Of a stretch of 64,000 bases of DNA, positions 26,372 through 63,158 are shown piece by piece. Every line of letters starts with the position of its first letter. Position 1 is the first letter of the stretch. Origin of the DNA: a virus (lineage: Duplodnaviria; Heunggongvirae; Uroviricota; Caudoviricetes); the IMG/VR virus record IMGVR_UViG_3300031134_000466; one strand, 5' to 3'. The notes under the pieces are model-generated. The model searched no databases. It worked only from the letters and a program-made list of their open reading frames with translations, and was not told where the DNA came from. Position numbers and translations under genes: made by a program.

Positions 26372-27676
26372 ATGGGAAAAATCATTGAAGAGACAATGCT
26401 TGTCATGGTTGACACAAAGAACAACAACAACAAGTTCTACCATGTCACATTGGATGATGCTAACGTCGTCACCAAGCGCTGGGGACGTGTAGGAGCTGAA
26501 GGAGCGAGTTCCGTCGAGACAACAGGCAAGATTGGTTACGAGCGAGCCATCAAGTCCAAAGAGAAAAAGGGCTACAAGGTCTCACCTATTGTTAGCACAG
26601 GTGTCACAGTCAAGAGTTCTGTCAACCACCTTGACGAAGTAGCTAAGAAGTTTCTGTCCAAGGACAGCGGAGACAGCCTTATCAGCAACCTCATTGACCG
26701 ACTCATCGCATCAAACCAGCACCAGATTATGGAGCAGTCCGGTGGTATGATTAAGATTACCGACGACGGAACCGTAAAGACCGCTCTCGGTGTTGTTGAC
26801 CTTTGCTCCATCAACTCTGCCCGAGACCTCATTGGTGAGATGCAGAAGAAGAAAACAGGGCAGACCAAGCTCCTGGAAGATTACCTCACCCTCATTCCTC
26901 AGAACATTGGGTACCGTCGTGGTTGGGAAGAGGACTTCCTGAAGACGGAAAACTTTGCCAAGCAGATGGACTTCTTGAAGCAGCTTGAGGATTCTGTGCA
27001 GTGGCGAAACACCACCGCACAGGTCACCACAGATGACGAAGACAAGTTCGACATCGATGCTCACAAAGACCTGTTCCGCATGAACCTTGCGAAGATTTCC
27101 GACAGCGGAAAAGACTTCGACCGTATCAACAAGATGTTTAAAGAAACACGCAACAACATGCACACATCACGTAACCTCAAACTTGTGAACGTGTATGCAG
27201 TGGAAGATGTCAAGGGCAAGGAAGCTTACGAAGCTGCTCAGAAGAAGTATGGAAACGTACGTGAACTCTGGCACGGAACAAAAGCCTCCAATGTTCTCTC
27301 CATTCTCACAAAGGGATTGTTCGTGCCTAACGCAGGTAGCGGTATCCCTGTGACAGGAAGAATGTTCGGTGATGGTGTCTACTTCAGTGACCAGAGCACC
27401 AAAAGCTTGAACTACGCCAACGGTTACTGGGATGGTTCACGCACCAGCCAGAACTGTTTCATGCTTCTGAACGATGTTGTCATGGGTCATGAGTACCGCC
27501 CTCAGCGTTGGGACTACAGCTCTCTCCGTCAGGCACACAAGGGCGTTGGAACTTCAGGTAAGCCTTACCAGTCCATCAGCGTTCGTGGTGGAACCTGTAA
27601 CGTTCGAAACAACGAAATGATTATTTGGAACACTGACCAGGTGGCTGTACGTTACCTCTGCGAATTTGGTAGCTAA
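26372..27676 (+). CDS. Poly(ADP-ribose) polymerase (PARP)-like protein: WGR domain + helical regulatory region + catalytic domain with H-Y-E triad
   Basis: WGR motif KFYHVTL...VVTKRWGRVGAEG...KKGYKV; catalytic LWHGTKASNVLSIL (His), GVYFSDQSTKS (Tyr), YANGY, NEMIIWN (Glu) in PARP order. Confidence 0.85.
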   Translation: MGKIIEETMLVMVDTKNNNNKFYHVTLDDANVVTKRWGRVGAEGASSVETTGKIGYERAIKSKEKKGYKVSPIVSTGVTVKSSVNHLDEVAKKFLSKDSGDSLISNLIDRLIASNQHQIMEQSGGMIKITDDGTVKTALGVVDLCSINSARDLIGEMQKKKTGQTKLLEDYLTLIPQNIGYRRGWEEDFLKTENFAKQMDFLKQLEDSVQWRNTTAQVTTDDEDKFDIDAHKDLFRMNLAKISDSGKDFDRINKMFKETRNNMHTSRNLKLVNVYAVEDVKGKEAYEAAQKKYGNVRELWHGTKASNVLSILTKGLFVPNAGSGIPVTGRMFGDGVYFSDQSTKSLNYANGYWDGSRTSQNCFMLLNDVVMGHEYRPQRWDYSSLRQAHKGVGTSGKPYQSISVRGGTCNVRNNEMIIWNTDQVAVRYLCEFGS

Positions 27677-28538: not shown

Positions 28539-29579
28539 ATGACCACTGCTACTAAATGTGCCAAACCAAAAGGGGTATATTGCCGTTTGCACAACCCTGA
28601 ACCTCGTGGGTATGCTTCTGCATCAGAAGCGTTAAATAAAGCAGAGCAGGACTTCAACAAAGCCAACCCGATCAAATCTTCTTCTCCTGGTGTTTCTTTT
28701 CATAAAAACGGTGAGACTCGCACATTGCACAAAAGTGTTCCAGAGAACATTGCTGACCATATTGCTTTGAATCAAGAACAACTGTCTCACTTGTCAGACA
28801 TGCAGAAGAAAGCTTTGAACGGTTACACCGGCTTTGCTGCAGGTGTTTGCAATAGTGTGTTGTTAGCAAAAGAATTCGCTTATGAGTATTACGAAGATGC
28901 CCCTCTATGGAAAGAAGCCCCAGGAGGAGCGTGTGACTTTGTTTCTCGTGAAGATTTAGTTGACTACATGGAAACAATGGATGGTATCCTTGCTTCCCGC
29001 CAGGAACAATCCCGAGTTCTATACCGTGGTATTCCTATTTACTCAGAACTGCATGACGAGATTGGTAATGGCATAGGTAAAAAGCTGCCTTTCGCTGATG
29101 CTACTGGCTTAGCAGAGGGTTTGAGTGAATATTACAAGCCTGGTACTGTCATTAAGCATGACCATTACTTGTCCACAACAGCATCAGCGTATTATGCAGC
29201 TGACCGTACAGACAATTCCATCGGGACAAAAAAGAGCTATTACGATAGCAATGATGTACCAGTCGGTATTGTCTTTGAGCTGAAAACCAATGCTGGTTTG
29301 GATGTTACAGCTGCAGCTCGTCATCATTCTTATGAACGTGAAGTGGTGTTACCTCGTGAAACTTACTTCAAAGTTGTCAACGTGGACGTGAATCCACAAG
29401 CTTATGACACTGTTTCAGGATTCGATACGCTCAACCATCCTGAGGAGCGAGAGCAGAAAACTTTCACTCGCTTAGCTGCTGTTGTTCAGATGGTCGAAGT
29501 AGACAAAAACGGCAAAGAAATAACAGGTACTGCACCTCATAATCCAGAGAGAAAAATCAGCGACATCATTCCTGGATGA
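28539..29579 (+). CDS. Mono-ADP-ribosyltransferase (R-S-E class) with N-terminal Cys-KP-C-H module
   Basis: N-term KCAKPKGVYCRLH; Arg motif VLYRGI, Ser-Thr motif YLSTTAS, catalytic YEREVVLPRETYFKVV (E-x-E). Confidence 0.7.
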   Translation: MTTATKCAKPKGVYCRLHNPEPRGYASASEALNKAEQDFNKANPIKSSSPGVSFHKNGETRTLHKSVPENIADHIALNQEQLSHLSDMQKKALNGYTGFAAGVCNSVLLAKEFAYEYYEDAPLWKEAPGGACDFVSREDLVDYMETMDGILASRQEQSRVLYRGIPIYSELHDEIGNGIGKKLPFADATGLAEGLSEYYKPGTVIKHDHYLSTTASAYYAADRTDNSIGTKKSYYDSNDVPVGIVFELKTNAGLDVTAAARHHSYEREVVLPRETYFKVVNVDVNPQAYDTVSGFDTLNHPEEREQKTFTRLAAVVQMVEVDKNGKEITGTAPHNPERKISDIIPG

Positions 29580-30499: not shown

Positions 30500-31465
30500 A
30501 TGTGCTACCCCAAACCTGGTCCTCGCTGTTCAGCTCATGCTGCAGTTAAACTGGCGACTGTAAAACTCGCTTCTACCAGCGGTAGTCAAGATTTTGCCGA
30601 GTACTTAGCTCATCAGGAGCGTCTTGAAGAAGCTCAGCTGGAGTATGACATCACGCCAGCAGGTTTGAAAGATTTACAGGATTTAGTGGGTCAACGAAAT
30701 GACCCTGACGCTGAGCTCCGTTATTCCAAAGCTAAAGCCCTGAGAGCAAAGAAGTTGGCTTTGTTGCATGAAGACCAGAAACAAGAGCAAGGTCATACTC
30801 TTGCAAGGGTTCAAGGGGTAAATGAAGATTTTTGTTCTGATGAAATTGTTCGTTCTAACAAAGATGCTGGAATCACATCCGCAGCTTTAGTAGCTGAAGC
30901 TGAACCGTGGTTTAATCAGTTGAACGATGATGAACTTTCTCAAATGCACTGGATGACCGACTATGGTTCAATGGAAGCTAATACGCACATCGCAGGAACC
31001 AATGACCATAAACGTTTTGGTGGTCTATTCTCTGCAGAGAACTTGGAATCTCGTATGGTTCAAGTTGACTCGGCTTTGAGTAAGTTTGAGTCACATCATG
31101 ATGAAGTTGTCTACAGGGGCTTTCGTGAAGGCTCTCTTCCCTCTGCTATGGCAAACAACTACCGGGTATCAGATGATGTGAAGCAAGCTGCAGTTCTGAA
31201 ATCTTTCACCGTAGGTGAAGTCTACAAGTCTGATTTCTACATGCCAACTTCTGTACAGCCTGAAGAGGCTGCTCGTTTTGCTGATTTCGGTTGCGTCATG
31301 GAAATCAAAACCCGCAAAGCTGCTCCTGTATCTGCCATTTCTGAAGTTCCCCGTGAGTCAGAAAAACTGATTGGTCGTAACAGTGAATTCAAAGTCGTGG
31401 CAATCAAAGAGAACATCATGTACGGCATTAAGAGAATGACTGTTGTTCAGTTAGAGCAACTCTAA
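30500..31465 (+). CDS. Mono-ADP-ribosyltransferase (R-S-E class) with N-terminal MCYPKPGPRCSAHA module
   Basis: Arg motif VVYRGF, Ser-Thr motif YMPTSV, catalytic PRESEKLIGRNSEFKVV (E-x-E). Confidence 0.7.
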   Translation: MCYPKPGPRCSAHAAVKLATVKLASTSGSQDFAEYLAHQERLEEAQLEYDITPAGLKDLQDLVGQRNDPDAELRYSKAKALRAKKLALLHEDQKQEQGHTLARVQGVNEDFCSDEIVRSNKDAGITSAALVAEAEPWFNQLNDDELSQMHWMTDYGSMEANTHIAGTNDHKRFGGLFSAENLESRMVQVDSALSKFESHHDEVVYRGFREGSLPSAMANNYRVSDDVKQAAVLKSFTVGEVYKSDFYMPTSVQPEEAARFADFGCVMEIKTRKAAPVSAISEVPRESEKLIGRNSEFKVVAIKENIMYGIKRMTVVQLEQL

Positions 31466-39327: not shown

Positions 39328-40449
39328 TCAGTCAGCAGTTTTTCCGTTCAAGTTCCAGAATGGCTTCTCAAACTCAGGCTGAATCATTTTCCAGATGATG
39401 TCAGAGATTTTCTTCTCAGACCTGGTATCAAAATGACCTCCGCTGTGACGAGAGAATAACAAACCAGTAATGCGTTTGTCTTCTTTCTGTACAGCTGCAG
39501 CGTAGTCCTTCTGAGTGTATCCTTCAGGAAGTTCAGAAAGAATACGGTTGTAAGTTTCCTCAACTGTTGCACGCAATTCAGCATGCTCTGCAAGTAGTCG
39601 GTCACGAGTTGTTTCGACATACTCAACGAACTCATCAGGGAGACCAACAATCCATGAAGTGAAGTCACCGTCAGCTACAAGCAGCTCCCAGATGCGACGC
39701 GAAGAAGCACCTGTGATGACACGGTGAAGCTGAACGTAGTCATCCTGTTTCACTTTCACTCGAACATCACTATCCAGGAAGTGAACAACAACGCCTTCTT
39801 TGTTCTCACGACCAGGAGCGGCCAAAGCTTCAGTAAGGCTGTTGTATTCAAACTGCTCAACCTTCAACCAAGTCCATTCATCAACCTGTGATGCTGGTAC
39901 AGAGCGACCTGTTGCTGTGTTCACTCGGGCAATCAAGATGAGGTCATCCAAATCACCGTAGTTAACAACGATACGGTTTGTAGGGTAGATGATTTCCCAG
40001 ATGTAAGTTTCACCAGCAAGTGGCTCCCATTTTCCGTCGTACAGCTCCTGGTAACGTGCTGTGGCATGCAGAGCCTGCTCAGAGCTGAATGAACCTCGTG
40101 TGGAGATGTTCAGTCGACCAGTTTCAGGGTTTACATATGAAACACCCATAGAACCATCTGCTTTGTCTGTGACAACGATAGGTCCAGTCAGTGCATCCTG
40201 AGGAACATCTGGTTCGCCGTGGTTAAAGAACTTACCAAGAGGGCGGGAGACAATCTCCTGGGTGGAACCGTCAACGATAAGTCCTCGTGAAGCTAATGTT
40301 GCAGCGTTCCAGGCTCGGTCAAACTGGCATACCTGTGAGTAGTCAAAGATAGCCAGGTCAAGCGTAGGGTGAACCTGACGATTGATGTGCTTGTTCTGGA
40401 ATTCAGCTGCCCAAAGTTCAGCAGGAGCGATATCGTAAATGTGTACCAT
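39328..40449 (-). CDS. ATP-dependent RNA ligase (Rnl family), paralog 1
   Basis: Nucleotidyltransferase motif I TDKADGSMG (KxDG), same order of downstream motifs as ORF 54122. Confidence 0.7.
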   Translation of the reverse strand: MVHIYDIAPAELWAAEFQNKHINRQVHPTLDLAIFDYSQVCQFDRAWNAATLASRGLIVDGSTQEIVSRPLGKFFNHGEPDVPQDALTGPIVVTDKADGSMGVSYVNPETGRLNISTRGSFSSEQALHATARYQELYDGKWEPLAGETYIWEIIYPTNRIVVNYGDLDDLILIARVNTATGRSVPASQVDEWTWLKVEQFEYNSLTEALAAPGRENKEGVVVHFLDSDVRVKVKQDDYVQLHRVITGASSRRIWELLVADGDFTSWIVGLPDEFVEYVETTRDRLLAEHAELRATVEETYNRILSELPEGYTQKDYAAAVQKEDKRITGLLFSRHSGGHFDTRSEKKISDIIWKMIQPEFEKPFWNLNGKTAD

Positions 40450-42792: not shown

Positions 42793-44685
<1,893 letters not shown>

Positions 44686-50666: not shown

Positions 50667-50800
50667 GATTCTAATGTTCCTTAATCGTTGTCAGCTTTAT
50701 GAGCGGTCAAAGAATTCTATCATCAACGGCTAAAGCACATAGTATTTGACAGCTGGCTGGGTTTCATGGTAAGTTGGAGTATCTTAAGTTAGGAAACAAA

Positions 50801-51706
50801 ATGTCACAGATAATGCGGATTCACCGTGGAGTGCAAGGCTCTGGTAAATCCACAGAAGCCATCCGTTGGGTGAACCAGGACCCGTTAAACCGTGCCCGTG
50901 TGAACCGTGATGACATTCGTCTCAGCCAGTTCGGCTCCTACGAGCTTCCTCAGGAACTCGAAGTTGCTGTTACCAAAGTAGAGCATGCCATCATCACCGC
51001 ACTTCTTGCTGCACGCAAAAGTGTTGTTGTTGACAATGTGAACCTGAAAGCCAAGTACGTTAAAGAGTACCTGCTTATTGCGGAGAAAGCCAACGTACCT
51101 GTTGTGCATCAGGACTTCCCTGTGGAGTTGGAGACAGCTCTTGCTCGTAACGCTGCTCGTGACCGTAAAGTCCCTGCACATGTGATTGAGACAACATTCA
51201 AGCGTTACATTCAGAGTGGCAAGTTCCCTCCGTTCCCCGTACTTGACTACGAAGCCGCTGCAGCAGGAATCTATGTTCCTGATGAGACTCTGCCTAAAGC
51301 TATCCTTTTGGATGTTGACGGCACAGCCATGAAGATGGGTTCACATCGTGGACCGTTTGACTGGCACAAAGTCATTGATGACGAGCCTAACCCGCCTGTT
51401 GTTGAAACAGTAAAAGCTTTGCATGCTCAGGGCTACAAAGTTGTTGTCATGTCTGGTCGTGATGAAGTCTGCAAAACAGACACGTTACTTTCTCTGGAAG
51501 TAGCTGGTGTTCCTGTGGATGAAATCTACATGAGACCCCACAACGATTACCGTAAAGACAACATCATCAAGCGTGAACTTTTTGATGCTCACATTCGGGA
51601 GCGTTTCAACATCCTGTTAGCTTTGGATGACCGGAACCAGGTTGTGGACGCTTACCGTCGTGAGCTGGGTCTTCCTGTCTTTCAGGTTGACTACGGAGAC
51701 TTCTAA
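50801..51706 (+). CDS. Polynucleotide 5'-kinase/3'-phosphatase (T4 Pnkp architecture)
   Basis: N-terminal P-loop GVQGSGKST and kinase core, C-terminal HAD phosphatase LLDVDGT ... MSGRDE ... LDDRNQ; ATG 50801 with AGGAAA RBS. Confidence 0.8.
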   Translation: MSQIMRIHRGVQGSGKSTEAIRWVNQDPLNRARVNRDDIRLSQFGSYELPQELEVAVTKVEHAIITALLAARKSVVVDNVNLKAKYVKEYLLIAEKANVPVVHQDFPVELETALARNAARDRKVPAHVIETTFKRYIQSGKFPPFPVLDYEAAAAGIYVPDETLPKAILLDVDGTAMKMGSHRGPFDWHKVIDDEPNPPVVETVKALHAQGYKVVVMSGRDEVCKTDTLLSLEVAGVPVDEIYMRPHNDYRKDNIIKRELFDAHIRERFNILLALDDRNQVVDAYRRELGLPVFQVDYGDF

Positions 51707-51757: not shown

Positions 51758-52729
51758 TTAAATTTCTCGCAGCTGCACAATTGTCAGTTCAGTTGCTTCA
51801 CCTTTTTTATTGACCCTTTTGACTTTCACATCATTAGCAACAACTTCGAATTTTGCACCACGAGGAATGATGAACTCATACTCTCTTGGACCTTGCGATG
51901 AAATAGCTGTGATTGGGGCTCCACTTTTTGTAAGAATCTGTAAAGAAACATTGATGTTGTCTTTGGAAGGTAAATCTTGAGGATTCAAACTTGTCGATAA
52001 GAAGAATTTAGGTTCGTAAGTGCTACCAACAGGGAAATGTTTGTCGAGGTTTTGAGCGTCATCACTTGAATGATATCCTTTTTCATCATAAAGATGATGA
52101 CGGCGGTAAACCATCACGCCTTCTTCTGCTGGTTCGTGTTTAGCAAAAGCATCATCCAGGATAGTTACAGCTGCATCCAACGTTTCAGGTGCAACATTTT
52201 TTGCGTACGGATTTGTTGAAGCTGAAAGATGGCCGTTGATGTCAGCATAGCCATCTTCTGAATACCAGCGAAGAGTAGCTATTTCAGTATCATCCAGTTT
52301 GGCACTCCAGTTTTGGGAATCTGCCATGCTGTTCAACAGGTCAGCATGTTTGTAATGCATCTCTTCAAGAGTGTCACCAGTTTCGAAAAACGTCGGAGAA
52401 GTGTAAGCAGCTTTTTGTGCTTTTTTGTGGGTGATGACTTTACGATCCGCAACAGCAGCTAATCTTCTGGCTCGTTCTTGAGAAAGCGCTTCGTATTCTT
52501 CTGCATGCCATTCCTGCGTTGGATTCTTTTTGATCTGTCTTTCCAAAGACTTTAGATAAGCTGGTGTTAGTTTGTACTCTGCTTCAGCTTTTCTTCTTAC
52601 CGCTATTAGCTTCTCAAGCTCTGGGTCTTTGCGGTTGTCCATGAAAGCACTGAGAACCGCTTGATGAGCTTTAGCGTAGGTGGCTGCAGCATGAGCTGAA
52701 CAACGGGGACCAGGTTTTGGGTAACACAT
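51758..52729 (-). CDS. Mono-ADP-ribosyltransferase (R-S-E class) with N-terminal MCYPKPGPRCSAHA module
   Basis: Arg motif MVYRRH, classic STS motif FLSTSLN, catalytic PREYEFIIPRGAKFEVV (E-x-E); N-terminal 100 aa paralogous to ORF 30500. Confidence 0.7.
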   Translation of the reverse strand: MCYPKPGPRCSAHAAATYAKAHQAVLSAFMDNRKDPELEKLIAVRRKAEAEYKLTPAYLKSLERQIKKNPTQEWHAEEYEALSQERARRLAAVADRKVITHKKAQKAAYTSPTFFETGDTLEEMHYKHADLLNSMADSQNWSAKLDDTEIATLRWYSEDGYADINGHLSASTNPYAKNVAPETLDAAVTILDDAFAKHEPAEEGVMVYRRHHLYDEKGYHSSDDAQNLDKHFPVGSTYEPKFFLSTSLNPQDLPSKDNINVSLQILTKSGAPITAISSQGPREYEFIIPRGAKFEVVANDVKVKRVNKKGEATELTIVQLREI

Positions 52730-54121: not shown

Positions 54122-55363
54122 ATGTCAACTACAAGAAAACCTCCTTATCATCACAGCGATGGTACAAACTGCTGGACTAAAGATTGTTCGATCAGAGGCC
54201 GTGAAGATACAGAAAAAGCTGCTTTCTTCAAGCAAGTAGAAACAGCTGCTGAGACTGTTGTTCCAACCAATGAATTGCCTCCTCTGTCAGCTTTTCAGAA
54301 AGCCTATGATGATGGTCGCATTGAGTGCAGCCGCCACCCTGAACATCCTTATGTGACTTACAAGTATTCCAGAACAACTCAGTTTGCTTCTGACTGGGAT
54401 GATGTGACCTTAGCGTCTCGTGGTGTCATCTTCAATGAGGAGACAGGCGAGATTGTTGCTCGTCCATTTGCTAAGTTCTTCAACCATAACGAACCGTCAG
54501 TTCCCAGAGACAAATTACATGGCCGTATTAGTGTAACTGACAAGCTGGACGGTTCTTTAGGAATTGGTTATGTTGATGAGAACGGTAAGTTCAACATTGC
54601 AACCTCTGGAAGCTTTATCTCTGAACAGGCAAAACGTTCTACAGAGCTCTATCATGAGCGTTATGAAGGCAACTGGAAGCCAAATCCTAAGTTGACCTAC
54701 ATGTGGGAAATCATCTACCCAGAAAATCGTGTCGTGGTCAACTATGGCGATGAAGATGACTTGCATCTCATCGGTGCTGTCAACAAACGAACTGGTAAAT
54801 CAGTTCCGTTGCGTGACATCAAAGAATGGAAGTGGAAAAGAGCTGAAGAGTACAAAGACTTCTCCTCCTTGGATGCTGTTCTTCACTCTCCTGAAAGAGA
54901 AAACCGTGAAGGTTTCATTGTTCATTACATCGATACTGATACCCGCGTGAAATACAAGCATGCAGATTATCTTGAGCTCCATCGTAACCGTACTGGCGTG
55001 ACTTCCAAAACTATCTGGCGTAAAATGCGTATGGGTGAAGATATGGCAGGTTGGAAAGAGAACATGCCTGAAGAGTTCAGTGAGTTCGTATCCACTCGTC
55101 AAGCTAAAATCACTGCCGGATATAACAAAGAAATTGCCCAAATTACTGATGAGCATGGCACTTTCAAAGCAACTCTTCCTGCTGGTTATGACCGTAAGAC
55201 TTTTGCTACCACTTTGAAAAACTCACCTCTTGTACCAGCCGAAAACAAAGCTTTCGTCATGAACCTTGAGTTCAACGGCAGTGCTGTTGGAAGTGTTGTT
55301 CAATCTCATAAGATTTGGGACCGTGTGAAACCTGAGGACGAGAACACCTTGTGGAACATGTAA
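54122..55363 (+). CDS. ATP-dependent RNA ligase (Rnl family), paralog 2
   Basis: Motif I TDKLDGSLG; collinear with ORF 39328 (SRG..F..E....ARP.AKFFNH.EP, GSF.SEQA, YMWEIIYPENRVVVNYGD, REG.VVH). Confidence 0.7.
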   Translation: MSTTRKPPYHHSDGTNCWTKDCSIRGREDTEKAAFFKQVETAAETVVPTNELPPLSAFQKAYDDGRIECSRHPEHPYVTYKYSRTTQFASDWDDVTLASRGVIFNEETGEIVARPFAKFFNHNEPSVPRDKLHGRISVTDKLDGSLGIGYVDENGKFNIATSGSFISEQAKRSTELYHERYEGNWKPNPKLTYMWEIIYPENRVVVNYGDEDDLHLIGAVNKRTGKSVPLRDIKEWKWKRAEEYKDFSSLDAVLHSPERENREGFIVHYIDTDTRVKYKHADYLELHRNRTGVTSKTIWRKMRMGEDMAGWKENMPEEFSEFVSTRQAKITAGYNKEIAQITDEHGTFKATLPAGYDRKTFATTLKNSPLVPAENKAFVMNLEFNGSAVGSVVQSHKIWDRVKPEDENTLWNM

Positions 55364-55652: not shown

Positions 55653-55746
55653 CTTGGACCTCCTAATTTTAAATCGGCTGATTATTTTACGAATTGTACT
55701 GTAATTATAGTCATTCTGACGATAAAGATGGTATGATTAGGATGTT

Positions 55747-56412
55747 ATGAAGAACACATACGGAATTCTCGGCGGATATGGGGCGGTAGCCACCCTACAT
55801 CTCCAGCAGCTGCTCGTGAAGCGAGTCCTCAGCACTGGACAGTACGCTGATATTGCCTTCCCTCGTATGGTAATTTCCAATCTGCCTGAAGACATCATCA
55901 ATGCTGAAGGACATATCAGCAGCCTTGGTAGCCTGCGGACTGAACTTGGTAAAACAGCTCCTCTATTCCAAGGAGCCACAGATGTTTATGTCATTTGTAA
56001 CACCTTCCATGTCGAAGAAGAGTTCATGCAGCGAGTCTTCGCTAACAAACTACATTCTGTTCCGGCTTTAACCAGTCAAGCTGTCGTAGATGCTGGATAC
56101 TCCAAACCTCTTATCGTAGGTTCCAAGCTGACTTCTCAGGATAACCTGTACAGTCATACAGCTTACACCTCAACTAACATGTTTGCGGATGAGCTAATCA
56201 CTGCTGGAATGAAGTACCAGACATCTCACTCTCAGCTGGCAGATGTCATAGCTGCTGCCAAACAGGCTAGCTCAGACTGCATTGTTTTAGGTTGCACAGA
56301 TTTGTCCGTGATGGCTGACACTCTCCGAACCATGACTGCACTTCCCGTAATCGACTCCGTTGAAGCAGTCGCCAACCATATTTACAACTCCCATACGAAA
56401 GATGAATCGTGA
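55747..56412 (+). CDS. Asp/Glu/hydantoin racemase-family protein
   Basis: N-terminal ILGGYGAVATLH (GGMG-type motif) and second-half VLGCTDLS (GCTE-type) with the two catalytic-Cys-region positions. Confidence 0.65.
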   Translation: MKNTYGILGGYGAVATLHLQQLLVKRVLSTGQYADIAFPRMVISNLPEDIINAEGHISSLGSLRTELGKTAPLFQGATDVYVICNTFHVEEEFMQRVFANKLHSVPALTSQAVVDAGYSKPLIVGSKLTSQDNLYSHTAYTSTNMFADELITAGMKYQTSHSQLADVIAAAKQASSDCIVLGCTDLSVMADTLRTMTALPVIDSVEAVANHIYNSHTKDES

Positions 56413-57374
56413 AAGTCTACAACGACACAGTAACCATGACTGCAGAGCTGGCTCAGACCTTAGAGCAATTGAGAGCTGTGCGGGCTTTTGACGCTACAGA
56501 ATGGATTGAGCGTAAGGTTGTCCTAATCAACCAGTACTTCGCTCAGAACAAGCTCTCAGGGGCTGTAGTAGGTGTTTCTGGTGGCATCGACTCAGCTGTA
56601 GCCCTTTCACTTCTTGTCAAAGCATCCCAGCAAGACAACAGCCCAATTCAGAAGATTGTCCCTCTTCTACTTCCTGCTCTTTCTTACGAAGGTGCAACTA
56701 ACCAAGACGGGGCAGTTCAGCAGGCTACTGACCTATGCCAGAACCTTGGACTGAAGCCAGCTGTTTTCACTAAGCTCACATCTCTTTCCCAAGTGATTAC
56801 TTCTGAACTGGAAGACATTCTGGACATCAAATCAACAGACTGGGCTAAAGGACAGCTAGTGGCTTACACCAGAACCCCAGTCCTGTACAACACCTGCTCA
56901 ATCCTTACTGACGCCGGCTACCCTGCACTGGTTGTAGGAACCACAAACCTTTCCGAAGGTGGATACCTCGGTTATGTCGGAAAAGCTTCAGATGGTATGG
57001 TTGACCTGCAAGTAATTTCTGATTTGTACAAGTCAGAAGTGTACAAAGTCGCAGCTTTACTTGAAGTTCCTGAAAGCGTTATGAAAGCTACTCCTACAGG
57101 GGACATGTACGACGGTCGTGAAGATGAAACAGTTTTCGGAGCTTCTTACGACTTCGTAGAGCTGTTTCATCTATGGCTACAGGCACGCAGCGTCCCATTG
57201 AAACTTCTTCGAGATGCCCACTTTGTCACAGGAGCTAAAAACCTGCAAAAACTGCACGACTACAACGCACATAAGTACACCTACGGAACTCCATCCATTC
57301 ACCTGGACATTATGAACGCAGCAATCCCAAACGGATGGAACAATCAGCCTTGGAGGCCCCAGAATGGCAACTAA
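56409..57374 (+). CDS. Divergent NAD+ synthetase (NadE)-like PP-loop amidotransferase
   Basis: PP-loop VGVSGGIDSAVA; GTTNLSEGGYLGYVGKASDGMVDLQVISDLYKSEVYKVA matches NadE GT.N.SE...GY.TKYGDG..D..P; 4-nt overlap with upstream gene. Confidence 0.7.
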   Translation: MKVYNDTVTMTAELAQTLEQLRAVRAFDATEWIERKVVLINQYFAQNKLSGAVVGVSGGIDSAVALSLLVKASQQDNSPIQKIVPLLLPALSYEGATNQDGAVQQATDLCQNLGLKPAVFTKLTSLSQVITSELEDILDIKSTDWAKGQLVAYTRTPVLYNTCSILTDAGYPALVVGTTNLSEGGYLGYVGKASDGMVDLQVISDLYKSEVYKVAALLEVPESVMKATPTGDMYDGREDETVFGASYDFVELFHLWLQARSVPLKLLRDAHFVTGAKNLQKLHDYNAHKYTYGTPSIHLDIMNAAIPNGWNNQPWRPQNGN

Positions 57375-58104
57375 ATTCGTAAACCAAGTCAACTTCGAAA
57401 TCCCTACTGTTGCTCACACAGTTCAAGTGAGACCGTTCCCTGAACTTGACCGTACAGCGGTAGTGATTCCTGAACTCGTCCCTGCCGAGGAAAAAGTCAG
57501 TATCATGGCAGCGTTGGAAGACTCCAACTGGCAGCCAGTGTCAGTGACAGGAATGTCAGGAAACTGGAAAGAAGGTGACCCTATTGGTTCTTACCGTGCT
57601 TCCAACTACACTCCTGAGTATGCTGAAGTTCTGTGGAACAGAATCAAACACGGTTTCCCTACTGTACGCACATTCACAGATGCTGATAACACCGACTTCG
57701 ATGGTCATGAGCTGTGGGAACCCATTGGCGTGTCACCTCTTCTTCGATTCATCAAATATGAAGAAGGCGGCTGGCTTGTAGTTCATTACGATGCTCCGTA
57801 TGTCGAATCAGAAGATGTTCGCACACTCCAAAGCCTTGTCGTATATCTGGAACACCCAGGTGAACTTCACGGAGGAGCAACCCGCTACCTTCATGACCCT
57901 CAGGCTCATCTTCCTGTTACTCAGCGTGAACTCAACGACGAATACCGTGCTGCTGAAGAAGATGAAGTGAGACTCCGCTTCGCTCCTGAAGATGGAACAG
58001 CTGTAGTCTTCGACCACCGCCTTCTGCATGACGCTGAAAAGGTCACAGGAACTGGCACAAAAACAATCATTCGAACAGACATTATGTACAGGAAAGTACG
58101 ATGA
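57364..58104 (+). CDS. 2OG-Fe(II) oxygenase-superfamily-like protein
   Basis: HYDAPY (HxD) and downstream His (LEHPGELHGG) with distal RxS-like region; weak call. Confidence 0.4.
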   Translation: MATKFVNQVNFEIPTVAHTVQVRPFPELDRTAVVIPELVPAEEKVSIMAALEDSNWQPVSVTGMSGNWKEGDPIGSYRASNYTPEYAEVLWNRIKHGFPTVRTFTDADNTDFDGHELWEPIGVSPLLRFIKYEEGGWLVVHYDAPYVESEDVRTLQSLVVYLEHPGELHGGATRYLHDPQAHLPVTQRELNDEYRAAEEDEVRLRFAPEDGTAVVFDHRLLHDAEKVTGTGTKTIIRTDIMYRKVR

Positions 58105-59624
58105 ATTTAGACAGATACTTCCAGGCTCTTTACGAAAGAACCAATAGTAAGCAGGACTTAGTAACAGCAGGTTGGATTGAAAACAAGCCGCTACGCATCA
58201 ACCCGCATGTGCGATTCTACACAACCCCTCTGCAAGCTATTCGTGACGCGGGCAAAAAGGACGTATCTGTCTTGTTCTACCCTGGTTGTTTCGCTCCAGT
58301 CCATGAAGGTCACCTTGGGGCTATGAGGCTGGCCAAAGAAGCAATTGAAACCCAGACAGGCGAGACTGTAGCTGCAGGCTATTTCACCCCTGACCATGAT
58401 AACTACATCATGCGTAAAACTCATGACGAACGTTTCATCGCACCTAACCGCATCGCTCTTCTCCATGAAGCAGTAGAAAATGAACCCTGGATGCAGGTGG
58501 ACGACTGGGCTTCACTGTACGCTCCCACTGATTTGAACTTCACAACACTATATGACAGGTTCAACCTTTACCTGAAGCGTTGGTTACCTGACTTGAACAT
58601 CAAGCTGTACATGGTTTTTGGTGGAGACAACTACATGTTTGCGAACAGTTTCACTGAATACGGACACGGTGTTTGTGTGCCAAGAGAAGGAGCTCAGATG
58701 GACTTGAGCTTAGTTCACCCTGATGCCAAAAAGCGGGTTATTTTCAGCGAAAAAGTCTGTACAGACCATTCTTCTACAGCTGCACGAGCAGCAAACCCTG
58801 GAGCTATCGATATCCACGGCAGAAGTGCATTAGGTTCCACCTATGTACTTCGTGAAGACTTGGACTTAGCTTTCCGAGAGAACCCTACTACTTACTCGAA
58901 CAAAATTATTGCTGACTCTGTAGCTATTCTTTTGCAGGCGCATGTGCCGTACGAGAAAGTCAAAGTGAAAAGAGTTCCCATTATCAGGCAGATGGCTAAC
59001 CATACTGAGACAGAGAATGTGATTTCCTTAGACTGTTTCTGGAAAGCAGAGCAGAACCTTGAAATTTCTCGCCTGTTTTCAACTGGAGGCAGTCAGCACC
59101 ATGCCATCAAATACGTCAACCGTCCTGGCTCGCCGGCTCTTCAAGAGCAGGTAGAAGCAATTCCTGCTGGAGTGTACACTCTCGTAGATGATGACATTGC
59201 TACTGGGGAGACAATGAGTTTTGTTTCCAACATGCTGGAAACGCACGATGTTGTTGTTGATAAGCAGGACAGCCTGATTTCCGAGCTGGGTTCTGACTTG
59301 TACGATGTAGTTGATTTGCGAGACTTTGTTCTTGGAACCGAACACGGCGGACTGACGGTTGCAACTCCTACAGGAGAAACGACAAGAATGCCTTACATCG
59401 CTCCTTATGTGAATCTTGTAAGCCGTGCTCGCATTAACCCTGACCGGGTGTTCAGTTTCTCCACCGAACTGTGGAAATTGAACTATGCACTTTACCGTAA
59501 TACGAAAACTACAGTAGGTGACATCAAAGAACATCAGGACTTCACCATGTTCGGTTTTGCCGAAGACATGACAGTGGCTGACTTGTGCCAAAAGCATCTT
59601 CAATTGATGACTGAATTGCAGTAA
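58101..59624 (+). CDS. Bifunctional NMN/NaMN adenylyltransferase (NadM-type) fused to a type I phosphoribosyltransferase-like domain
   Basis: Nucleotidyltransferase (H/T)xGH motif FYPGCFAPVHEGH and C-terminal SSTAARA motif; second domain with PRPP-binding loop VYTLVDDDIATGETM. Confidence 0.7.
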   Translation: MNLDRYFQALYERTNSKQDLVTAGWIENKPLRINPHVRFYTTPLQAIRDAGKKDVSVLFYPGCFAPVHEGHLGAMRLAKEAIETQTGETVAAGYFTPDHDNYIMRKTHDERFIAPNRIALLHEAVENEPWMQVDDWASLYAPTDLNFTTLYDRFNLYLKRWLPDLNIKLYMVFGGDNYMFANSFTEYGHGVCVPREGAQMDLSLVHPDAKKRVIFSEKVCTDHSSTAARAANPGAIDIHGRSALGSTYVLREDLDLAFRENPTTYSNKIIADSVAILLQAHVPYEKVKVKRVPIIRQMANHTETENVISLDCFWKAEQNLEISRLFSTGGSQHHAIKYVNRPGSPALQEQVEAIPAGVYTLVDDDIATGETMSFVSNMLETHDVVVDKQDSLISELGSDLYDVVDLRDFVLGTEHGGLTVATPTGETTRMPYIAPYVNLVSRARINPDRVFSFSTELWKLNYALYRNTKTTVGDIKEHQDFTMFGFAEDMTVADLCQKHLQLMTELQ

Positions 59625-59641
59625 GATGATAGACATGATGC

Positions 59642-60238
59642 ATGCTTGAAATACTTACAGCGGTAGGTCTTGCTTTAGCGGCAGGGTTGAACGCTTACAT
59701 TCCTCTGATTGCTGTCAGTTTGTTATCAAAGTTCACTGATTTTTTCACTCTTCCAGGAAACTGGTCATGGATGGAAGACAACTGGACATTAGCGATCTTG
59801 ATTGCTTTAGCTTTAGTAGAGTTCTTTGCTGACAAAATAGCTGCAGTTGACTCGTTGAATGATGTCATCCAAACAGCAGTCCGTCCAACATCAGGCGGAT
59901 TGCTGTTTGCTGCAGGTACCCATGTAACAGATGTTCCTGTGACTCAGATTAGTAATTTTGTGAGTTCTCCAGGCTTTCCTATGTTCATCATTGGTTTGAC
60001 TGTTGCTTTGCTTCCTCATTTGATGAAGATGTTCATCAGGCCGCTTATTAACGCAACGATGAGTGGAATGGTGACACCCATTGTCAGTTTTGGTGAAAAC
60101 ATTCTTACAGTAGGTTTGGTTGCTATGGCTATATTCATTCCAGTGCTGGTACCAGTAGCAGTAATACTGGTCATTGTTATAGGAGTACGGATTTTCCGAA
60201 ACCTCACCGCGAAAAAGAGTAAAACAGCAACAGCCTGA
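59642..60238 (+). CDS. DUF4126-like membrane protein
   Basis: LALAAGLNAYIPLIAVSLL ... LVEFFADKIAAVDSLNDVIQTAVRPTSGGL matches the DUF4126 pattern from memory. Confidence 0.45.
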   Translation: MLEILTAVGLALAAGLNAYIPLIAVSLLSKFTDFFTLPGNWSWMEDNWTLAILIALALVEFFADKIAAVDSLNDVIQTAVRPTSGGLLFAAGTHVTDVPVTQISNFVSSPGFPMFIIGLTVALLPHLMKMFIRPLINATMSGMVTPIVSFGENILTVGLVAMAIFIPVLVPVAVILVIVIGVRIFRNLTAKKSKTATA

Positions 60239-62238: not shown

Positions 62239-62312
62239 TCACAAAAACGTGCTTTTTCGTCAATATGACGATATACTGTAATAAGAATGGTCTAAGGAAG
62301 GAAACCCGTATC

Positions 62313-63158
62313 ATGACCAAGCTCCAGAAACAGATTATTAACACTCTTGGGGTAAAACCCGTCATCAATGCCGAACAGGAGCTACGCACTCGTGTAGATT
62401 TCCTCAAAGACTTCACCCGTAATGCTGGCACCAGAGGATTTGTACTTGGAATCAGTGGTGGACAGGACTCTGCTCTTGCCGGCTACATTGCACAGACAGC
62501 TGTCCGTGAACTCCGCGACGAGACGGGTGAGAACTACCAGTTCTTAGCTCTTCTTCTTCCTTACGGGACTCAGAAAGACGCTGATGATGCAATCACCATC
62601 GCCCGTGACTTCATCAAGGCTGACCAGGTAATTGAGTACAACATCAAGCCTGCAGTGGATGCTTTCACTGACCAGTACAATGACATCGCTGGCTGGTCAG
62701 GCGATGAAGCTGATAACCTCAGCGATTACCATAAAGGTAACGTCAAAGCCCGCACCCGTGCCGTAACACAGTACGCTTACGCTGGTACCCATCAGCTGCT
62801 TGTTGTAGGTACAGACCATGCTGCTGAGGCAGTATCAGGCTTCTTCACCAAGTTCGGTGACGGTGCAGCTGACGTTCTCCCTTTGAGCGGTTTGAACAAA
62901 CGTCAGGGCAAAGAGCTTCTTCGCTTGGCAGGTGCTCCCGAGTTCGTCATCACCAAAGCTCCCACAGCGGACCTTCTGGACAACAAAGCAGGTCAGGCTG
63001 ATGAGACTGAGCTGGGTATTACATACGATGTTCTTGACGACTACCTTGAAGGTAAAGATGTCAATGTAGTTGCAGCTCAGAAAATTGAACTGCGTTACCT
63101 GATGACAGAACACAAGCGTCAACTCCCAGTTGACCCTGCAGCAACATGGTGGAAGTGA
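62313..63158 (+). CDS. nadE: NH3-dependent NAD+ synthetase
   Basis: Near-collinear with E. coli NadE from the N-terminus ([34 protein letters not shown]...[13 protein letters not shown]); ATG 62313 with AAGGAAGG RBS. Confidence 0.9.

What the first reader, a model, noticed from the sequence alone, without database searches (positions are those of the whole stretch)
55747..59624. Four translationally coupled genes forming an NAD+-related operon: racemase-family enzyme, divergent NadE, 2OG-oxygenase-like protein, NMNAT-PRTase fusion
Successive start/stop overlaps of 4, 11 and 4 nt (56409/56412, 57364/57374, 58101/58104) link an Asp/Glu-racemase-family protein, a 321-aa NadE-like PP-loop enzyme, a 2OG-Fe(II)-oxygenase-like protein and a 507-aa NMNAT(HxGH, SSTAARA) + PRTase(VDDDIATGET) fusion. 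A canonical NadE lies 3 kb downstream. A second, divergent NadE next to an NMNAT recalls the Francisella NaMN to NMN to NAD route, in which a NadE-like NMN synthetase works with NadM. With three ARTs and a PARP in the same window, this looks like a built-in NAD+ supply. It could feed the ADP-ribosylating enzymes or rebuild NAD+ after host abortive-infection NADases such as Thoeris, DSR or SIR2.
Basis: inference. Interest (0 to 1): 0.75.

Follow-up and report, generated by a model that had tools for sequence, protein, structure and literature searches.

The report
NAD-building operon needing an oxidase
A giant phage-like genome carries a four-gene operon for building NAD-type cofactors, and its amide-forming enzyme is almost always paired with an oxygen- or radical-based enzyme across many bacteria and phages, which points to an undescribed way of making the nicotinamide group.

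Summary
Four ORFs sit at exactly the stated coordinates, with 4-, 11- and 4-nt overlaps. HMMs and structure models identify a two-cysteine Asp-type racemase, a divergent NadE, a P4H-type 2OG-Fe(II) oxygenase, and an NMNAT fused to a very divergent type-I PRTase.

The block is a conserved module, not a chance juxtaposition. It recurs in giant phage-like contigs, IMG/VR jumbo phages and cultured bacteria (Variovorax, Streptomyces, Leptospira, Paraliomyxa). NadE-like and 2OG are often fused, and sometimes all four domains form one polypeptide.

In 29 independent loci anchored on NadE-like, 28 carry an oxidative partner. It is a 2OG oxygenase in hosts known to be aerobes, and a radical-SAM enzyme (one family RaSEA-like) in gut and groundwater lineages. 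28 of 29 also carry the PRTase domain.

My best reading is PRPP-dependent synthesis of NMN/NAD+ from a pyridine carboxylate, with amidation that needs an oxidative step. The likely route is amino-acid nitrogen donation followed by C–N cleavage, as in ArcS–RaSEA. That chemistry is inferred, not shown.

It is not NARP1, NARP2 or NARP3. A counter-defence role is untested.

The parts
55708..55737 (+). Promoter-like site (TAGTCA-18-TATGAT with TG) in the 94-nt gap upstream of ORF1
   Evidence: Weak evidence: only 3 sites were found in the region against 10.7 expected in shuffles, so the position is suggestive but not significant. No +-strand terminator-like site lies inside 55747-59624.
55747..56412 (+). 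ORF1, 221 aa: Asp/Glu-racemase-superfamily enzyme with both catalytic cysteines (VICNTFH, LGCTDLS)
   Evidence: PF01177 38.8 bits. Weak hits to cysteate and aspartate racemase models. Best solved relative is aspartate racemase 1jfl. Both Cys are invariant in 22 distinct module-linked homologues. Present in 10 of 12 2OG-type loci and 0 of 13 rSAM-A loci.
56409..57374 (+). ORF2, 321 aa: divergent NadE-family PP-loop ATP pyrophosphatase (SGGIDS), predicted carboxylate-adenylating amidating enzyme
   Evidence: PF02540 1.4e-31; TIGR00552 107.6 bits, above cutoff. 41-51% identical across phages and bacteria. Differs from the window's canonical NadE in the WAxGQ..R segment, a shorter P2 loop, an insert and a C-terminal tail. 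28 of 29 anchored loci carry an oxidative partner.
57364..58104 (+). ORF3, 246 aa: 2OG-Fe(II) oxygenase of the P4H/PKHD clade (H141-x-D143, H218/H222, R237)
58101..58835 (+). ORF4 N-terminal domain (about residues 1-245): NMN/NaMN adenylyltransferase with HEGH and SSTAAR motifs
58836..59624 (+). ORF4 C-terminal domain (about residues 246-507): highly divergent type-I phosphoribosyltransferase-like domain (PRPP loop LVDDDIATGET; invariant R251, D311, R324, Q332, R341, D405, R407, D408, R429, R442)
59642..60238 (+). DUF4126 membrane protein 17 nt downstream of ORF4; possibly co-transcribed, lineage-specific accessory
   Evidence: PF13548 7e-45. Same position in L001/L002 only. A terminator-like site lies at 60151-60171. 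Link to the module not established.
62265..63158 (+). Canonical ammonia-type NadE paralogue (context, not part of the operon)
   Evidence: NF001979 346.9 bits, above cutoff 250. Conserved at a similar distance in L001-L004.

Best explanation
The four genes are one conserved module that builds an amidated pyridine nucleotide (NMN, then NAD+) from a pyridine carboxylate and PRPP. Its amidation step depends on an oxidative enzyme.

Proposed sequence:
1. The C-terminal type-I PRTase-like domain of ORF4 joins nicotinate to PRPP to give NaMN (inferred).
2. The NadE-like ORF2 adenylates the nicotinate carboxylate. The adenylation machinery is conserved; the substrate is inferred. Instead of free ammonia, it couples the carboxylate to the amine of an amino acid, probably an acidic one supplied or stereo-inverted by the ORF1 racemase (inferred).
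3. The ORF3 2OG oxygenase abstracts hydrogen from, or hydroxylates, the carbon next to that nitrogen. The adduct then collapses to the primary amide plus a keto acid (inferred). The precedent is ArcS-RaSEA, where a lysine adduct is cleaved to leave the nitrogen.
4. The NMNAT domain of ORF4 adenylylates NMN to give NAD+. The family assignment is shown; the order of steps is inferred.

In anaerobe-associated lineages, radical-SAM enzymes do the job of ORF3.

My probabilities:
- About 0.65 that this is a pyridine-nucleotide synthesis module with an obligatory oxidative step.
- About 0.3 for the specific mechanism of an amino-acid donor followed by oxidative C-N cleavage.
For: Functional linkage:
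- Same order and overlaps in Variovorax, with Streptomyces, Leptospira and Paenibacillus variants.
- NadE-like and 2OG are fused in L006.
- All four domains lie in one reading frame in Paraliomyxa L022 and eight other loci. About 17 of the top 150 family representatives are 1,069-1,208 aa.

Obligatory oxidant:
- Among 29 de-duplicated NadE-like-anchored loci with enough flank, 28 have a 2OG oxygenase or a radical-SAM enzyme (11 2OG, 13 rSAM-A, 3 RaSEA-like, 1 with both). 28 have the PRTase domain.
- The fusion-anchored set shows the same pattern.
- Loci with the fusion but no NadE-like gene lack both oxidants.
- Host pattern: 2OG in Variovorax, Streptomyces, Myxococcota and Leptospira (aerobes, from established knowledge). 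rSAM in human-gut contigs and groundwater CPR-labelled MAGs.

Mechanistic precedent:
- rSAM-B is homologous to RaSEA (TIGR01210, E about 1e-48).
- RaSEA converts the ArcS-made preQ0-lysine adduct to the amidine. It forms an obligate complex with ArcS, and these ArcS enzymes do not use NH4+, Asn or Gln (PMC11298593).

NAD link:
- nadE model scored above cutoff.
- NrtR-type ADPR-responsive repressors are adjacent in L013, L028, L029, L053, L113 and L127/128.

Acidic amino-acid theme:
- Asp-type racemase with invariant catalytic Cys.
- An AstE/AspA-family N-acyl-Asp/Glu hydrolase gene lies near the module in two bacterial contigs.

Mononucleotide-level amidation:
- L051 and L090/L096 retain NadE-like, the oxidant and the PRPP loop but have a degenerate NMNAT.
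Against: - No substrate or product was observed. All the chemistry is inferred from families and co-occurrence.
- ORF2 passes the nadE equivalog-domain model, so ordinary ammonia use is not excluded.
- The rSAM-A family has no RaSEA affinity.
- The RaSEA-like hits are below the equivalog cutoff (165 bits against 212).
- The racemase is absent from rSAM-A loci and from the closest large relative, L001, so any role in supplying the donor is not universal.
- One chromosome (L130/L132) has NadE-like plus the fusion with no oxidant nearby.
- The phage also keeps a canonical NadE, which could mean ORF2 acts on something other than a nicotinate nucleotide.
Confidence: 0.45

Rival explanations
1. An ordinary Preiss-Handler or Francisella-type route. 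The PRTase makes NaMN, the NMNAT and an ammonia-dependent NadE-like enzyme finish NAD+. The oxygenase and racemase do something peripheral, such as precursor preparation or protein hydroxylation.
For: ORF2 meets the nadE model cutoff and keeps the PP-loop and adenylation motifs. ORF3's nearest folds include protein prolyl hydroxylases. Jumbo phages are known to carry pncB-nadD-nadE clusters (PMC11662467).
Against: It does not explain the 28 of 29 co-occurrence of NadE-like with an oxidant, the repeated NadE-2OG fusions, the replacement by two radical-SAM families, or the absence of oxidants where NadE-like is absent. Canonical NadEs have no such partners, and one coexists in the same genome.
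Confidence: 0.2
2. The oxidative partner is an ammonia generator. It oxidatively deaminates an amino acid (Asp or Glu, with the racemase feeding it) and passes NH3 to the NadE-like synthetase. This would make it a functional analogue of the glutaminase domain of glutamine-dependent NAD synthetases.
Against: The RaSEA homology points to adduct cleavage rather than deamination of a free amino acid. No channel or complex could be modelled here. ORF3's best fold matches are hydroxylases.
Confidence: 0.12
3. The module makes something other than NAD+. Candidates are a modified pyridine (or other carboxamide) mono- or dinucleotide used as an NADase-resistant cofactor, an ART substrate, a signal or a toxin.
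For: The same genome has a canonical NadE, so ORF2 looks non-redundant. The PRTase domain is unlike any NAD-pathway PRTase, all of which are type II (from my own knowledge). The distribution is patchy and HGT-like, on megaplasmids, in Streptomyces and Myxococcota, and beside TIR and Abi genes in Leptospira. A nucleoside-antibiotic oxygenase, PolD, is among ORF3's top fold matches.
Against: NrtR-type NAD regulators are adjacent in several lineages. The NMNAT domain is close to genuine NMN/NaMN adenylyltransferases. In some CPR-like chromosomes the pair sits among housekeeping genes, which suggests a primary-metabolism role.
Confidence: 0.15
4. The four genes are neighbours by chance and the overlaps are incidental.
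For: Short start/stop overlaps are common in compact phage genomes (general knowledge).
Against: The order is conserved at 26-98% identity across phages and at least five bacterial phyla. Gene fusions occur, and the co-occurrence statistics are strong.
Confidence: 0.01

Closest known systems
Preiss-Handler clusters (pncB-nadD-nadE) of 'NAD-jumbo phages' (PMC11662467)
   Same: Large phage genomes carrying clustered genes that would convert a pyridine base to NAD+. Includes a NadE-family amidating enzyme and a nucleotide adenylyltransferase.
   Different: Here the PRTase is a divergent type-I fold fused to the NMNAT, not PncB. The NadE is a separate clade tied to a 2OG oxygenase or radical-SAM enzyme, and often to a racemase. 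None of these features is mentioned in that paper.
Francisella tularensis NMN synthetase (NadE*) plus NadM route
   Same: A NadE homologue next to an NMN-capable adenylyltransferase. Lineages with a dead NMNAT domain suggest amidation at the mononucleotide level.
   Different: There is no specific sequence affinity: 3fiu scores the same as the Pyrococcus horikoshii NadE 2e18. The Francisella enzyme has no oxidative partner. Substrate preference was not testable here.
ArcS-RaSEA archaeosine synthase (PMC11298593)
   Same: A RaSEA-family radical-SAM protein sits beside an enzyme that installs a nitrogen on an activated carbon of a nucleotide base. RaSEA cleaves an amino-acid adduct to leave the nitrogen, and the partners form an obligate complex, which parallels the NadE-2OG fusions.
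   Different: The ligase is a PP-loop NadE homologue, not a TGT-like ArcS. The predicted substrate is a free pyridine nucleotide, not tRNA. Most members use a 2OG oxygenase or a different rSAM family. The RaSEA-like hits are below the equivalog cutoff.
Phage NAD+ reconstitution pathways NARP1 (Adps+Namat), NARP2 (Nampt+Nmnat), NARP3 (PnuC+NadR)
   Same: Phage-borne routes to NAD+. NARP2 also ends with an NMNAT, and NARP1 also uses a type-I-PRTase-fold enzyme (PRPS-like Adps).
   Different: There is no Nampt/Namat, no PRPS-like two-domain Adps, no PnuC or NadR kinase. This module contains an amidation step and an oxidative enzyme, and it is common in bacteria. No anti-defence activity was tested.
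Glutamine-dependent NAD synthetase (NadE fused to a nitrilase-like glutaminase)
   Same: A NadE synthetase domain fused to, or coupled with, a second enzyme that plausibly deals with the nitrogen donor.
   Different: The partner is a 2OG oxygenase or radical-SAM enzyme, not a glutaminase. The chemistry would be oxidative.

Membership tests
NAD synthetase (NadE) family, PF02540 / TIGR00552 | PP-loop SGGxDS ATP-pyrophosphatase domain scoring above the family cutoffs | tested here: met
   PF02540 109.9 bits (cutoff 21). TIGR00552 107.6 bits (cutoff 63.65). SGGIDS present.
NAD synthetase (NadE) family, canonical ammonia-dependent equivalogs | Score above equivalog cutoffs (NF001979 at 250, NF010587 at 255) | tested here: not met
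   ORF2 scores 74 and 122.3 bits. The window's other NadE scores 346.9 bits.
Francisella-type NMN synthetase | Preference for NaMN over NaAD as the amidation substrate | not testable with these tools
   The sequence gives no specific affinity: 3fiu 7.2e-17 against 2e18 1.6e-17. The paper with structural determinants is not held. Indirect support comes from NMNAT-degenerate lineages.
NMN/NaMN adenylyltransferase (NMNAT) | HxGH and ISSTxxR motifs on a HIGH-nucleotidyltransferase fold closest to NMNATs | tested here: met
Type-I phosphoribosyltransferase | PRPP-binding loop (hydrophobic run, two acidic residues, then xxTGxT) on the PRTase core fold | tested here: inconclusive
2OG-Fe(II) oxygenase, P4H/PKHD clade | HxD...H iron triad and a basic residue for the 2OG C5 carboxylate on a double-stranded beta-helix | tested here: met
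Asp/Glu racemase superfamily | Two catalytic cysteines in the CNT.H and GCT[DE] motifs | tested here: met
   VICNTFH and LGCTDLS. Both Cys are invariant in 22 homologues. PF01177 scored above cutoff. Below the equivalog cutoffs for aspartate and cysteate racemases, so substrate unknown.
NARP1 (Adps + Namat) | PRPS-like ADPR pyrophosphokinase plus a Nampt-like transferase | tested here: not met
   No PRPS or Nampt family hit in the operon or the window. Components as described.
NARP2 (Nampt + Nmnat) | Type-II nicotinamide PRTase together with an NMNAT | tested here: not met
   An NMNAT is present, but no Nampt or type-II PRTase. The PRTase-like domain is a type-I fold.
NARP3 (PnuC + NadR-like) | An NR transporter and a bifunctional NR kinase/NMNAT | tested here: not met
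RaSEA (archaeosine radical-SAM lyase), for the partner in sister loci | TIGR01210 equivalog score and partnership with ArcS | tested here: not met
   165-167 bits against a cutoff of 212. The partner is NadE-like, not ArcS. Homologous, but not the same enzyme.

The most novel reading that the evidence does not exclude
The NadE-like enzyme and its oxidative partner form a previously unrecognised, ammonia-independent NMN/NAD+ synthetase. An amino acid is ligated to the adenylated nicotinate carboxylate. A 2OG oxygenase (aerobes) or a radical-SAM enzyme (anaerobes) then cleaves the N-C bond oxidatively to leave nicotinamide. A type-I PRTase replaces the type-II enzymes used by all known NAD pathways. 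This would be a new biochemical route to a universal cofactor, spread by giant phages and megaplasmids.
Probability: 0.3. Interest if true: 0.85.

Novelty: new variant of a known kind. Interest (0 to 1): 0.72.

Why it matters
NAD+ synthesis is regarded as fully mapped, and NAD+ depletion and reconstitution are now central to phage-host conflict.

A widespread module would add a new enzymatic logic to cofactor biosynthesis. The family has at least 672 clusters at 50% identity. In it, amidation is tied to an O2- or radical-dependent enzyme, and a type-I PRTase is fused to the NMNAT.

It would also give names to hundreds of 'hypothetical proteins' in Streptomyces, Variovorax, Leptospira, Myxococcota and jumbo phages. 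And it would give a testable candidate for a fourth kind of phage NAD+ supply.

It is directly testable with four recombinant proteins.

Tried and rejected
- Nucleotide and tblastn searches of about 50,000 deposited phage genomes found no relative of ORF4 and only distant NadEs for ORF2. A single-sequence IMG/VR scan found nothing; the profile was needed.
- ORF3 has no sequence-detectable PDB relative. The fold search gave the clade but no substrate.
- No PADLOC defence model matches beyond a generic 2OG domain.
- I could not obtain the Francisella NMN synthetase paper. My alignment of ORF2 with canonical NadE used a B. subtilis sequence recalled from memory as a guide only. I therefore draw no residue-level specificity conclusion from it.
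- The 220-aa 'C3' protein accompanies the fusion where NadE-like is absent. It has no Pfam, NCBIfam or PDB match.
- PHROG and Pfam scans of the window found no capsid, terminase or tail gene, so 'phage' is not demonstrated from this window.
- Quinolinate or iminoaspartate ideas (oxygenase as a NadB analogue) were considered and set aside. They would put the fused NadE-like and 2OG domains at opposite ends of a pathway, and they need a NadA that is never linked.
- A BFVD fold search found only NMNAT-domain matches and no full-length viral counterpart.
- Literature searches found no description of the module. The library is incomplete, so a prior description cannot be excluded.

Full report
**1. 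The observation**

The ORF listing returns ORFs at exactly 55747-56412 (221 aa), 56409-57374 (321 aa, GTG start), 57364-58104 (246 aa) and 58101-59624 (507 aa), all on the + strand. The junction sequences are GTGA, an 11-nt overlap with a GGAGG 8 nt before the ORF3 ATG, and ATGA. The GTG start of ORF2 is supported by the conserved N-terminus M[KR]VYN in a distant homologue. One promoter-like site lies in the 94-nt gap upstream of ORF1. No +-strand terminator-like site lies inside the block. These scans are weak evidence.

**2. Family assignment**

- **ORF1** passes PF01177 (38.8 bits, cutoff 31). Its closest solved relative is Pyrococcus aspartate racemase 1jfl, and both catalytic-Cys motifs align.
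- **ORF2** passes PF02540 and the TIGR00552 nadE domain model. It fails all full-length NadE equivalog cutoffs. The ORF at 62265-63158 passes NF001979 with 346.9 bits.

**3. Context**

The window also encodes:
- a WGR-PARP
- two strong ARTs and one sub-threshold ART
- PNKP and two Rnl1-like RNA ligases
- NucS, Hsp70 and RNR
- an intein-containing methylase

There is no Nampt, PncB, Prs or Nudix, and no capsid, terminase or tail gene. Near-identical copies of the operon lie on metagenomic contigs of 0.78-0.88 Mb. A giant-phage origin is likely from gene content, but this window does not demonstrate it.

**4. The block is a conserved module**

ORF4 has no relative in about 50,000 deposited phage genomes. 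It does define a family:
- 44 clusters in the word-indexed search.
- 672 representative clusters at E<=1e-30 in the exhaustive search. All top 150 match both domains.

Neighbourhoods of relatives at 42-63% identity keep NadE-like, 2OG and the fusion together. The racemase is present in two of the three lineages.

Profile scans found the family in these places:
- the isolate Paraliomyxa miuraensis and other Myxococcota
- Alpha-, Beta- and Gammaproteobacteria
- CPR-labelled MAGs
- 180-465-kb IMG/VR contigs
- Variovorax megaplasmids
- a Streptomyces linear plasmid
- a Leptospira interrogans replicon
- a phage-like 360-kb Paenibacillus 'plasmid'

Variovorax WDL1 has the identical order racemase-nadE-2OG-'hypothetical protein', with 4-nt overlaps at all three junctions. 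PGAP annotates the fusion as a hypothetical protein everywhere.

**5. Fusions**

- In an Alphaproteobacteria MAG, the NadE-like and 2OG domains are one 590-aa protein. Its stop overlaps the start of the fusion gene.
- In Paraliomyxa and eight other loci, NadE-like, 2OG, NMNAT and PRTase form one reading frame.
- About 17 of the top 150 representatives are 1,069-1,208 aa, with the NMNAT-PRTase match in the C-terminal half.

**6. The oxidative partner**

I clustered neighbouring ORFs across loci and scored them with HMMs built from the families. Every fusion-anchored locus with a NadE-like gene and enough flank also has either a 2OG oxygenase or a radical-SAM enzyme. Loci with the fusion but no NadE-like gene (L034, L035, L037-L040) have neither.

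The radical-SAM partners fall into two families:
- **Family A:** about 291 aa, generic, overlapping the NadE-like start.
- **Family B:** about 370 aa, lying between NadE-like and the fusion in L033. It is homologous to RaSEA (TIGR01210, 165-167 bits, E about 1e-48, below the 212-bit cutoff).

As an independent test, I anchored a metagenome scan on the NadE-like clade: 316 relatives, 80 loci fetched. After 90% de-duplication, 29 loci had at least 1.2 kb upstream and 2.5 kb downstream.

| Feature | Count (of 29 unless stated) |
|---|---|
| Oxidative partner present | 28 |
| - radical-SAM family A | 13 |
| - 2OG oxygenase | 11 |
| - RaSEA-like (family B) | 3 |
| - both 2OG and RaSEA-like | 1 |
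| PRTase domain present | 28 |
| NMNAT domain present | 27 |
| Racemase, in 2OG-containing loci | 10 of 12 |
| Racemase, in family-A loci | 0 of 13 |

The exceptions:
- A CPR-like chromosome has the pair among pyrH, frr and rseP with no oxidant nearby (L130/L132).
- One locus lacks the fusion (L134).

The 2OG versions occur in organisms known to be aerobes (Variovorax, Streptomyces, Myxococcota, Leptospira). The radical-SAM versions occur in human-gut contigs and groundwater CPR-labelled MAGs. This is the familiar aerobic/anaerobic replacement pattern, as with HemF/HemN (established knowledge). It implies that a C-H activating step is integral to whatever the NadE-like enzyme does.

**7. Mechanistic inference**

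PMC11298593 states that ArcS ligates lysine to preQ0 and RaSEA converts the lysine adduct to archaeosine. The two form a complex, without which ArcS is inactive, and these ArcS enzymes do not use NH4+, Asn or Gln. A RaSEA-type enzyme therefore completes an amination in which an amino acid is the nitrogen donor.

By analogy, I propose:
1. The NadE-like enzyme adenylates a nicotinate-nucleotide carboxylate and couples it to an amino-acid amine.
2. The oxidant cleaves the N-C bond to leave the primary amide. With a 2OG oxygenase, this would go by hydroxylation next to the nitrogen and collapse of the hemiaminal, as in N-demethylases and peptidylglycine amidation (my own knowledge).

The donor may be an acidic amino acid. 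The supporting evidence is the Asp-type racemase with invariant catalytic cysteines, and AstE/AspA-family genes near the module in two bacterial contigs.

A close variant is that the oxidant deaminates a free amino acid and hands the ammonia to the synthetase.

None of this chemistry was observed.

**8. Order of steps**

L051 (2OG type) and L090/L096 (rSAM-A type) keep NadE-like, the oxidant and an intact PRPP loop. Their NMNAT domain has lost HxGH and the downstream motifs. So the minimal conserved chemistry is PRTase plus amidation. This favours NaMN to NMN, followed by adenylylation.

**9. The NAD link and its limits**

NrtR-type ADPR-responsive repressors (NF050029: E 2e-57 in Leptospira, 6e-36 in L013) flank the module in several lineages. 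A NAPRTase lies near it in L005.

Against a plain NAD role:
- A canonical NadE coexists in the same genome.
- The distribution is patchy and plasmid-rich.
- The Leptospira copy sits beside TIR, Abi and HNH genes.

A non-NAD product therefore remains possible.

**10. Comparison with known systems**

The module shares no component set with NARP1 (Adps+Namat), NARP2 (Nampt+Nmnat) or NARP3 (PnuC+NadR). It is not among the clusters described for NAD-jumbo phages, nor in the survey of viral NAD-ADPr systems. No PADLOC model matches. BFVD holds no full-length structural counterpart. I found no prior description in the held literature, but that library is incomplete.

**Verdict**

- The feature is a real, widespread and, as far as I could find, undescribed variant of NAD-type nucleotide synthesis.
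- Its distinguishing property is a near-obligatory oxidative partner for the NadE-like enzyme.
- A counter-defence role, or a role in feeding the ARTs, is plausible from context but untested.

Noticed in passing
L056 (Ga0308164_10000007, 788,683 bp); L058/L062 (878,612 and 883,042 bp); P0080 contig 980,546 bp; L131 contig 1,102,766 bp: Near-identical or related copies of the operon sit on single metagenomic contigs of 0.78-1.1 Mb. If these are phages they exceed the 735-kb record cited in PMC11662467. No capsid or terminase gene was seen in this window.
   Followed up: partly
L034-L040 (e.g. L040 10570-11232), L036 9319-9927, L051 10058-10681: A conserved 220-aa protein ('C3'; invariant E19, H22, Y24, D26, D61, D62, C148, W155) accompanies the NMNAT-PRTase fusion in jumbo-phage loci that lack NadE-like. 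It directly follows the fusion in L036 and L051. It has no Pfam, NCBIfam or PDB match.
   Followed up: partly
L112 (metagenome contig Ga0208373_1003768): One locus carries both a NadE-2OG fusion and a RaSEA-like radical-SAM gene next to the NMNAT-PRTase and the racemase, as if equipped for both oxic and anoxic conditions.
   Followed up: no
L053 (Leptospira interrogans sv. Bataviae NZ_CP043881, 4485-12366): The NrtR-nadE-2OG-fusion operon lies next to an HNH endonuclease, a TIR-domain protein, a putative abortive-infection protein and an integrase. This is a defence-island-like setting.
   Followed up: no
L051 (Paenibacillus thiaminolyticus SY20 'plasmid' NZ_CP106993): The 360-kb circular 'plasmid' carries SLOG, RNase H, FtsH, IF-3, macro-domain and SprT genes around the module. 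It looks like a jumbo phage or phage-plasmid. Its NMNAT domain is degenerate (HYGF).
   Followed up: partly
window 18430-21147 (+): A 905-aa ORF combines a dNMP-kinase-like N-terminus with a C5 cytosine DNA methylase that is interrupted by a Hint/intein domain.
   Followed up: no
window 26372-27676, 28539-29579, 30500-31465, 51758-52729: A WGR-PARP (102.7 bits) and two confident ARTs (57 and 74.6 bits) are confirmed.
   Followed up: partly
window 39328-40449 (-), 50774-51706 (+), 54122-55363 (+): Two Rnl1-type RNA ligases and a PNKP form an RNA-repair set next to the NAD genes. L005 adds Thg1, an RNA ligase (PF09414) and 2H-SAK. The link to the NAD module is syntenic in the giant-contig lineage only.
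   Followed up: no
window 59642-60238 (+): A DUF4126 membrane protein starts 17 nt after ORF4 and keeps that position in L001/L002. It could be a lineage-specific transporter or accessory of the operon.
   Followed up: no
L006 5295-6104 and 9747-10586; contig of P0040: In bacterial versions, an AstE/AspA-family (N-acyl-Asp/Glu hydrolase-like) gene and a second 2OG-oxygenase paralogue lie near the module.
   Followed up: no
window 42826-44685 (+): A full-length Hsp70/DnaK homologue (771.7 bits) is encoded in the window. Related contigs carry ClpB and FtsH homologues.
   Followed up: no
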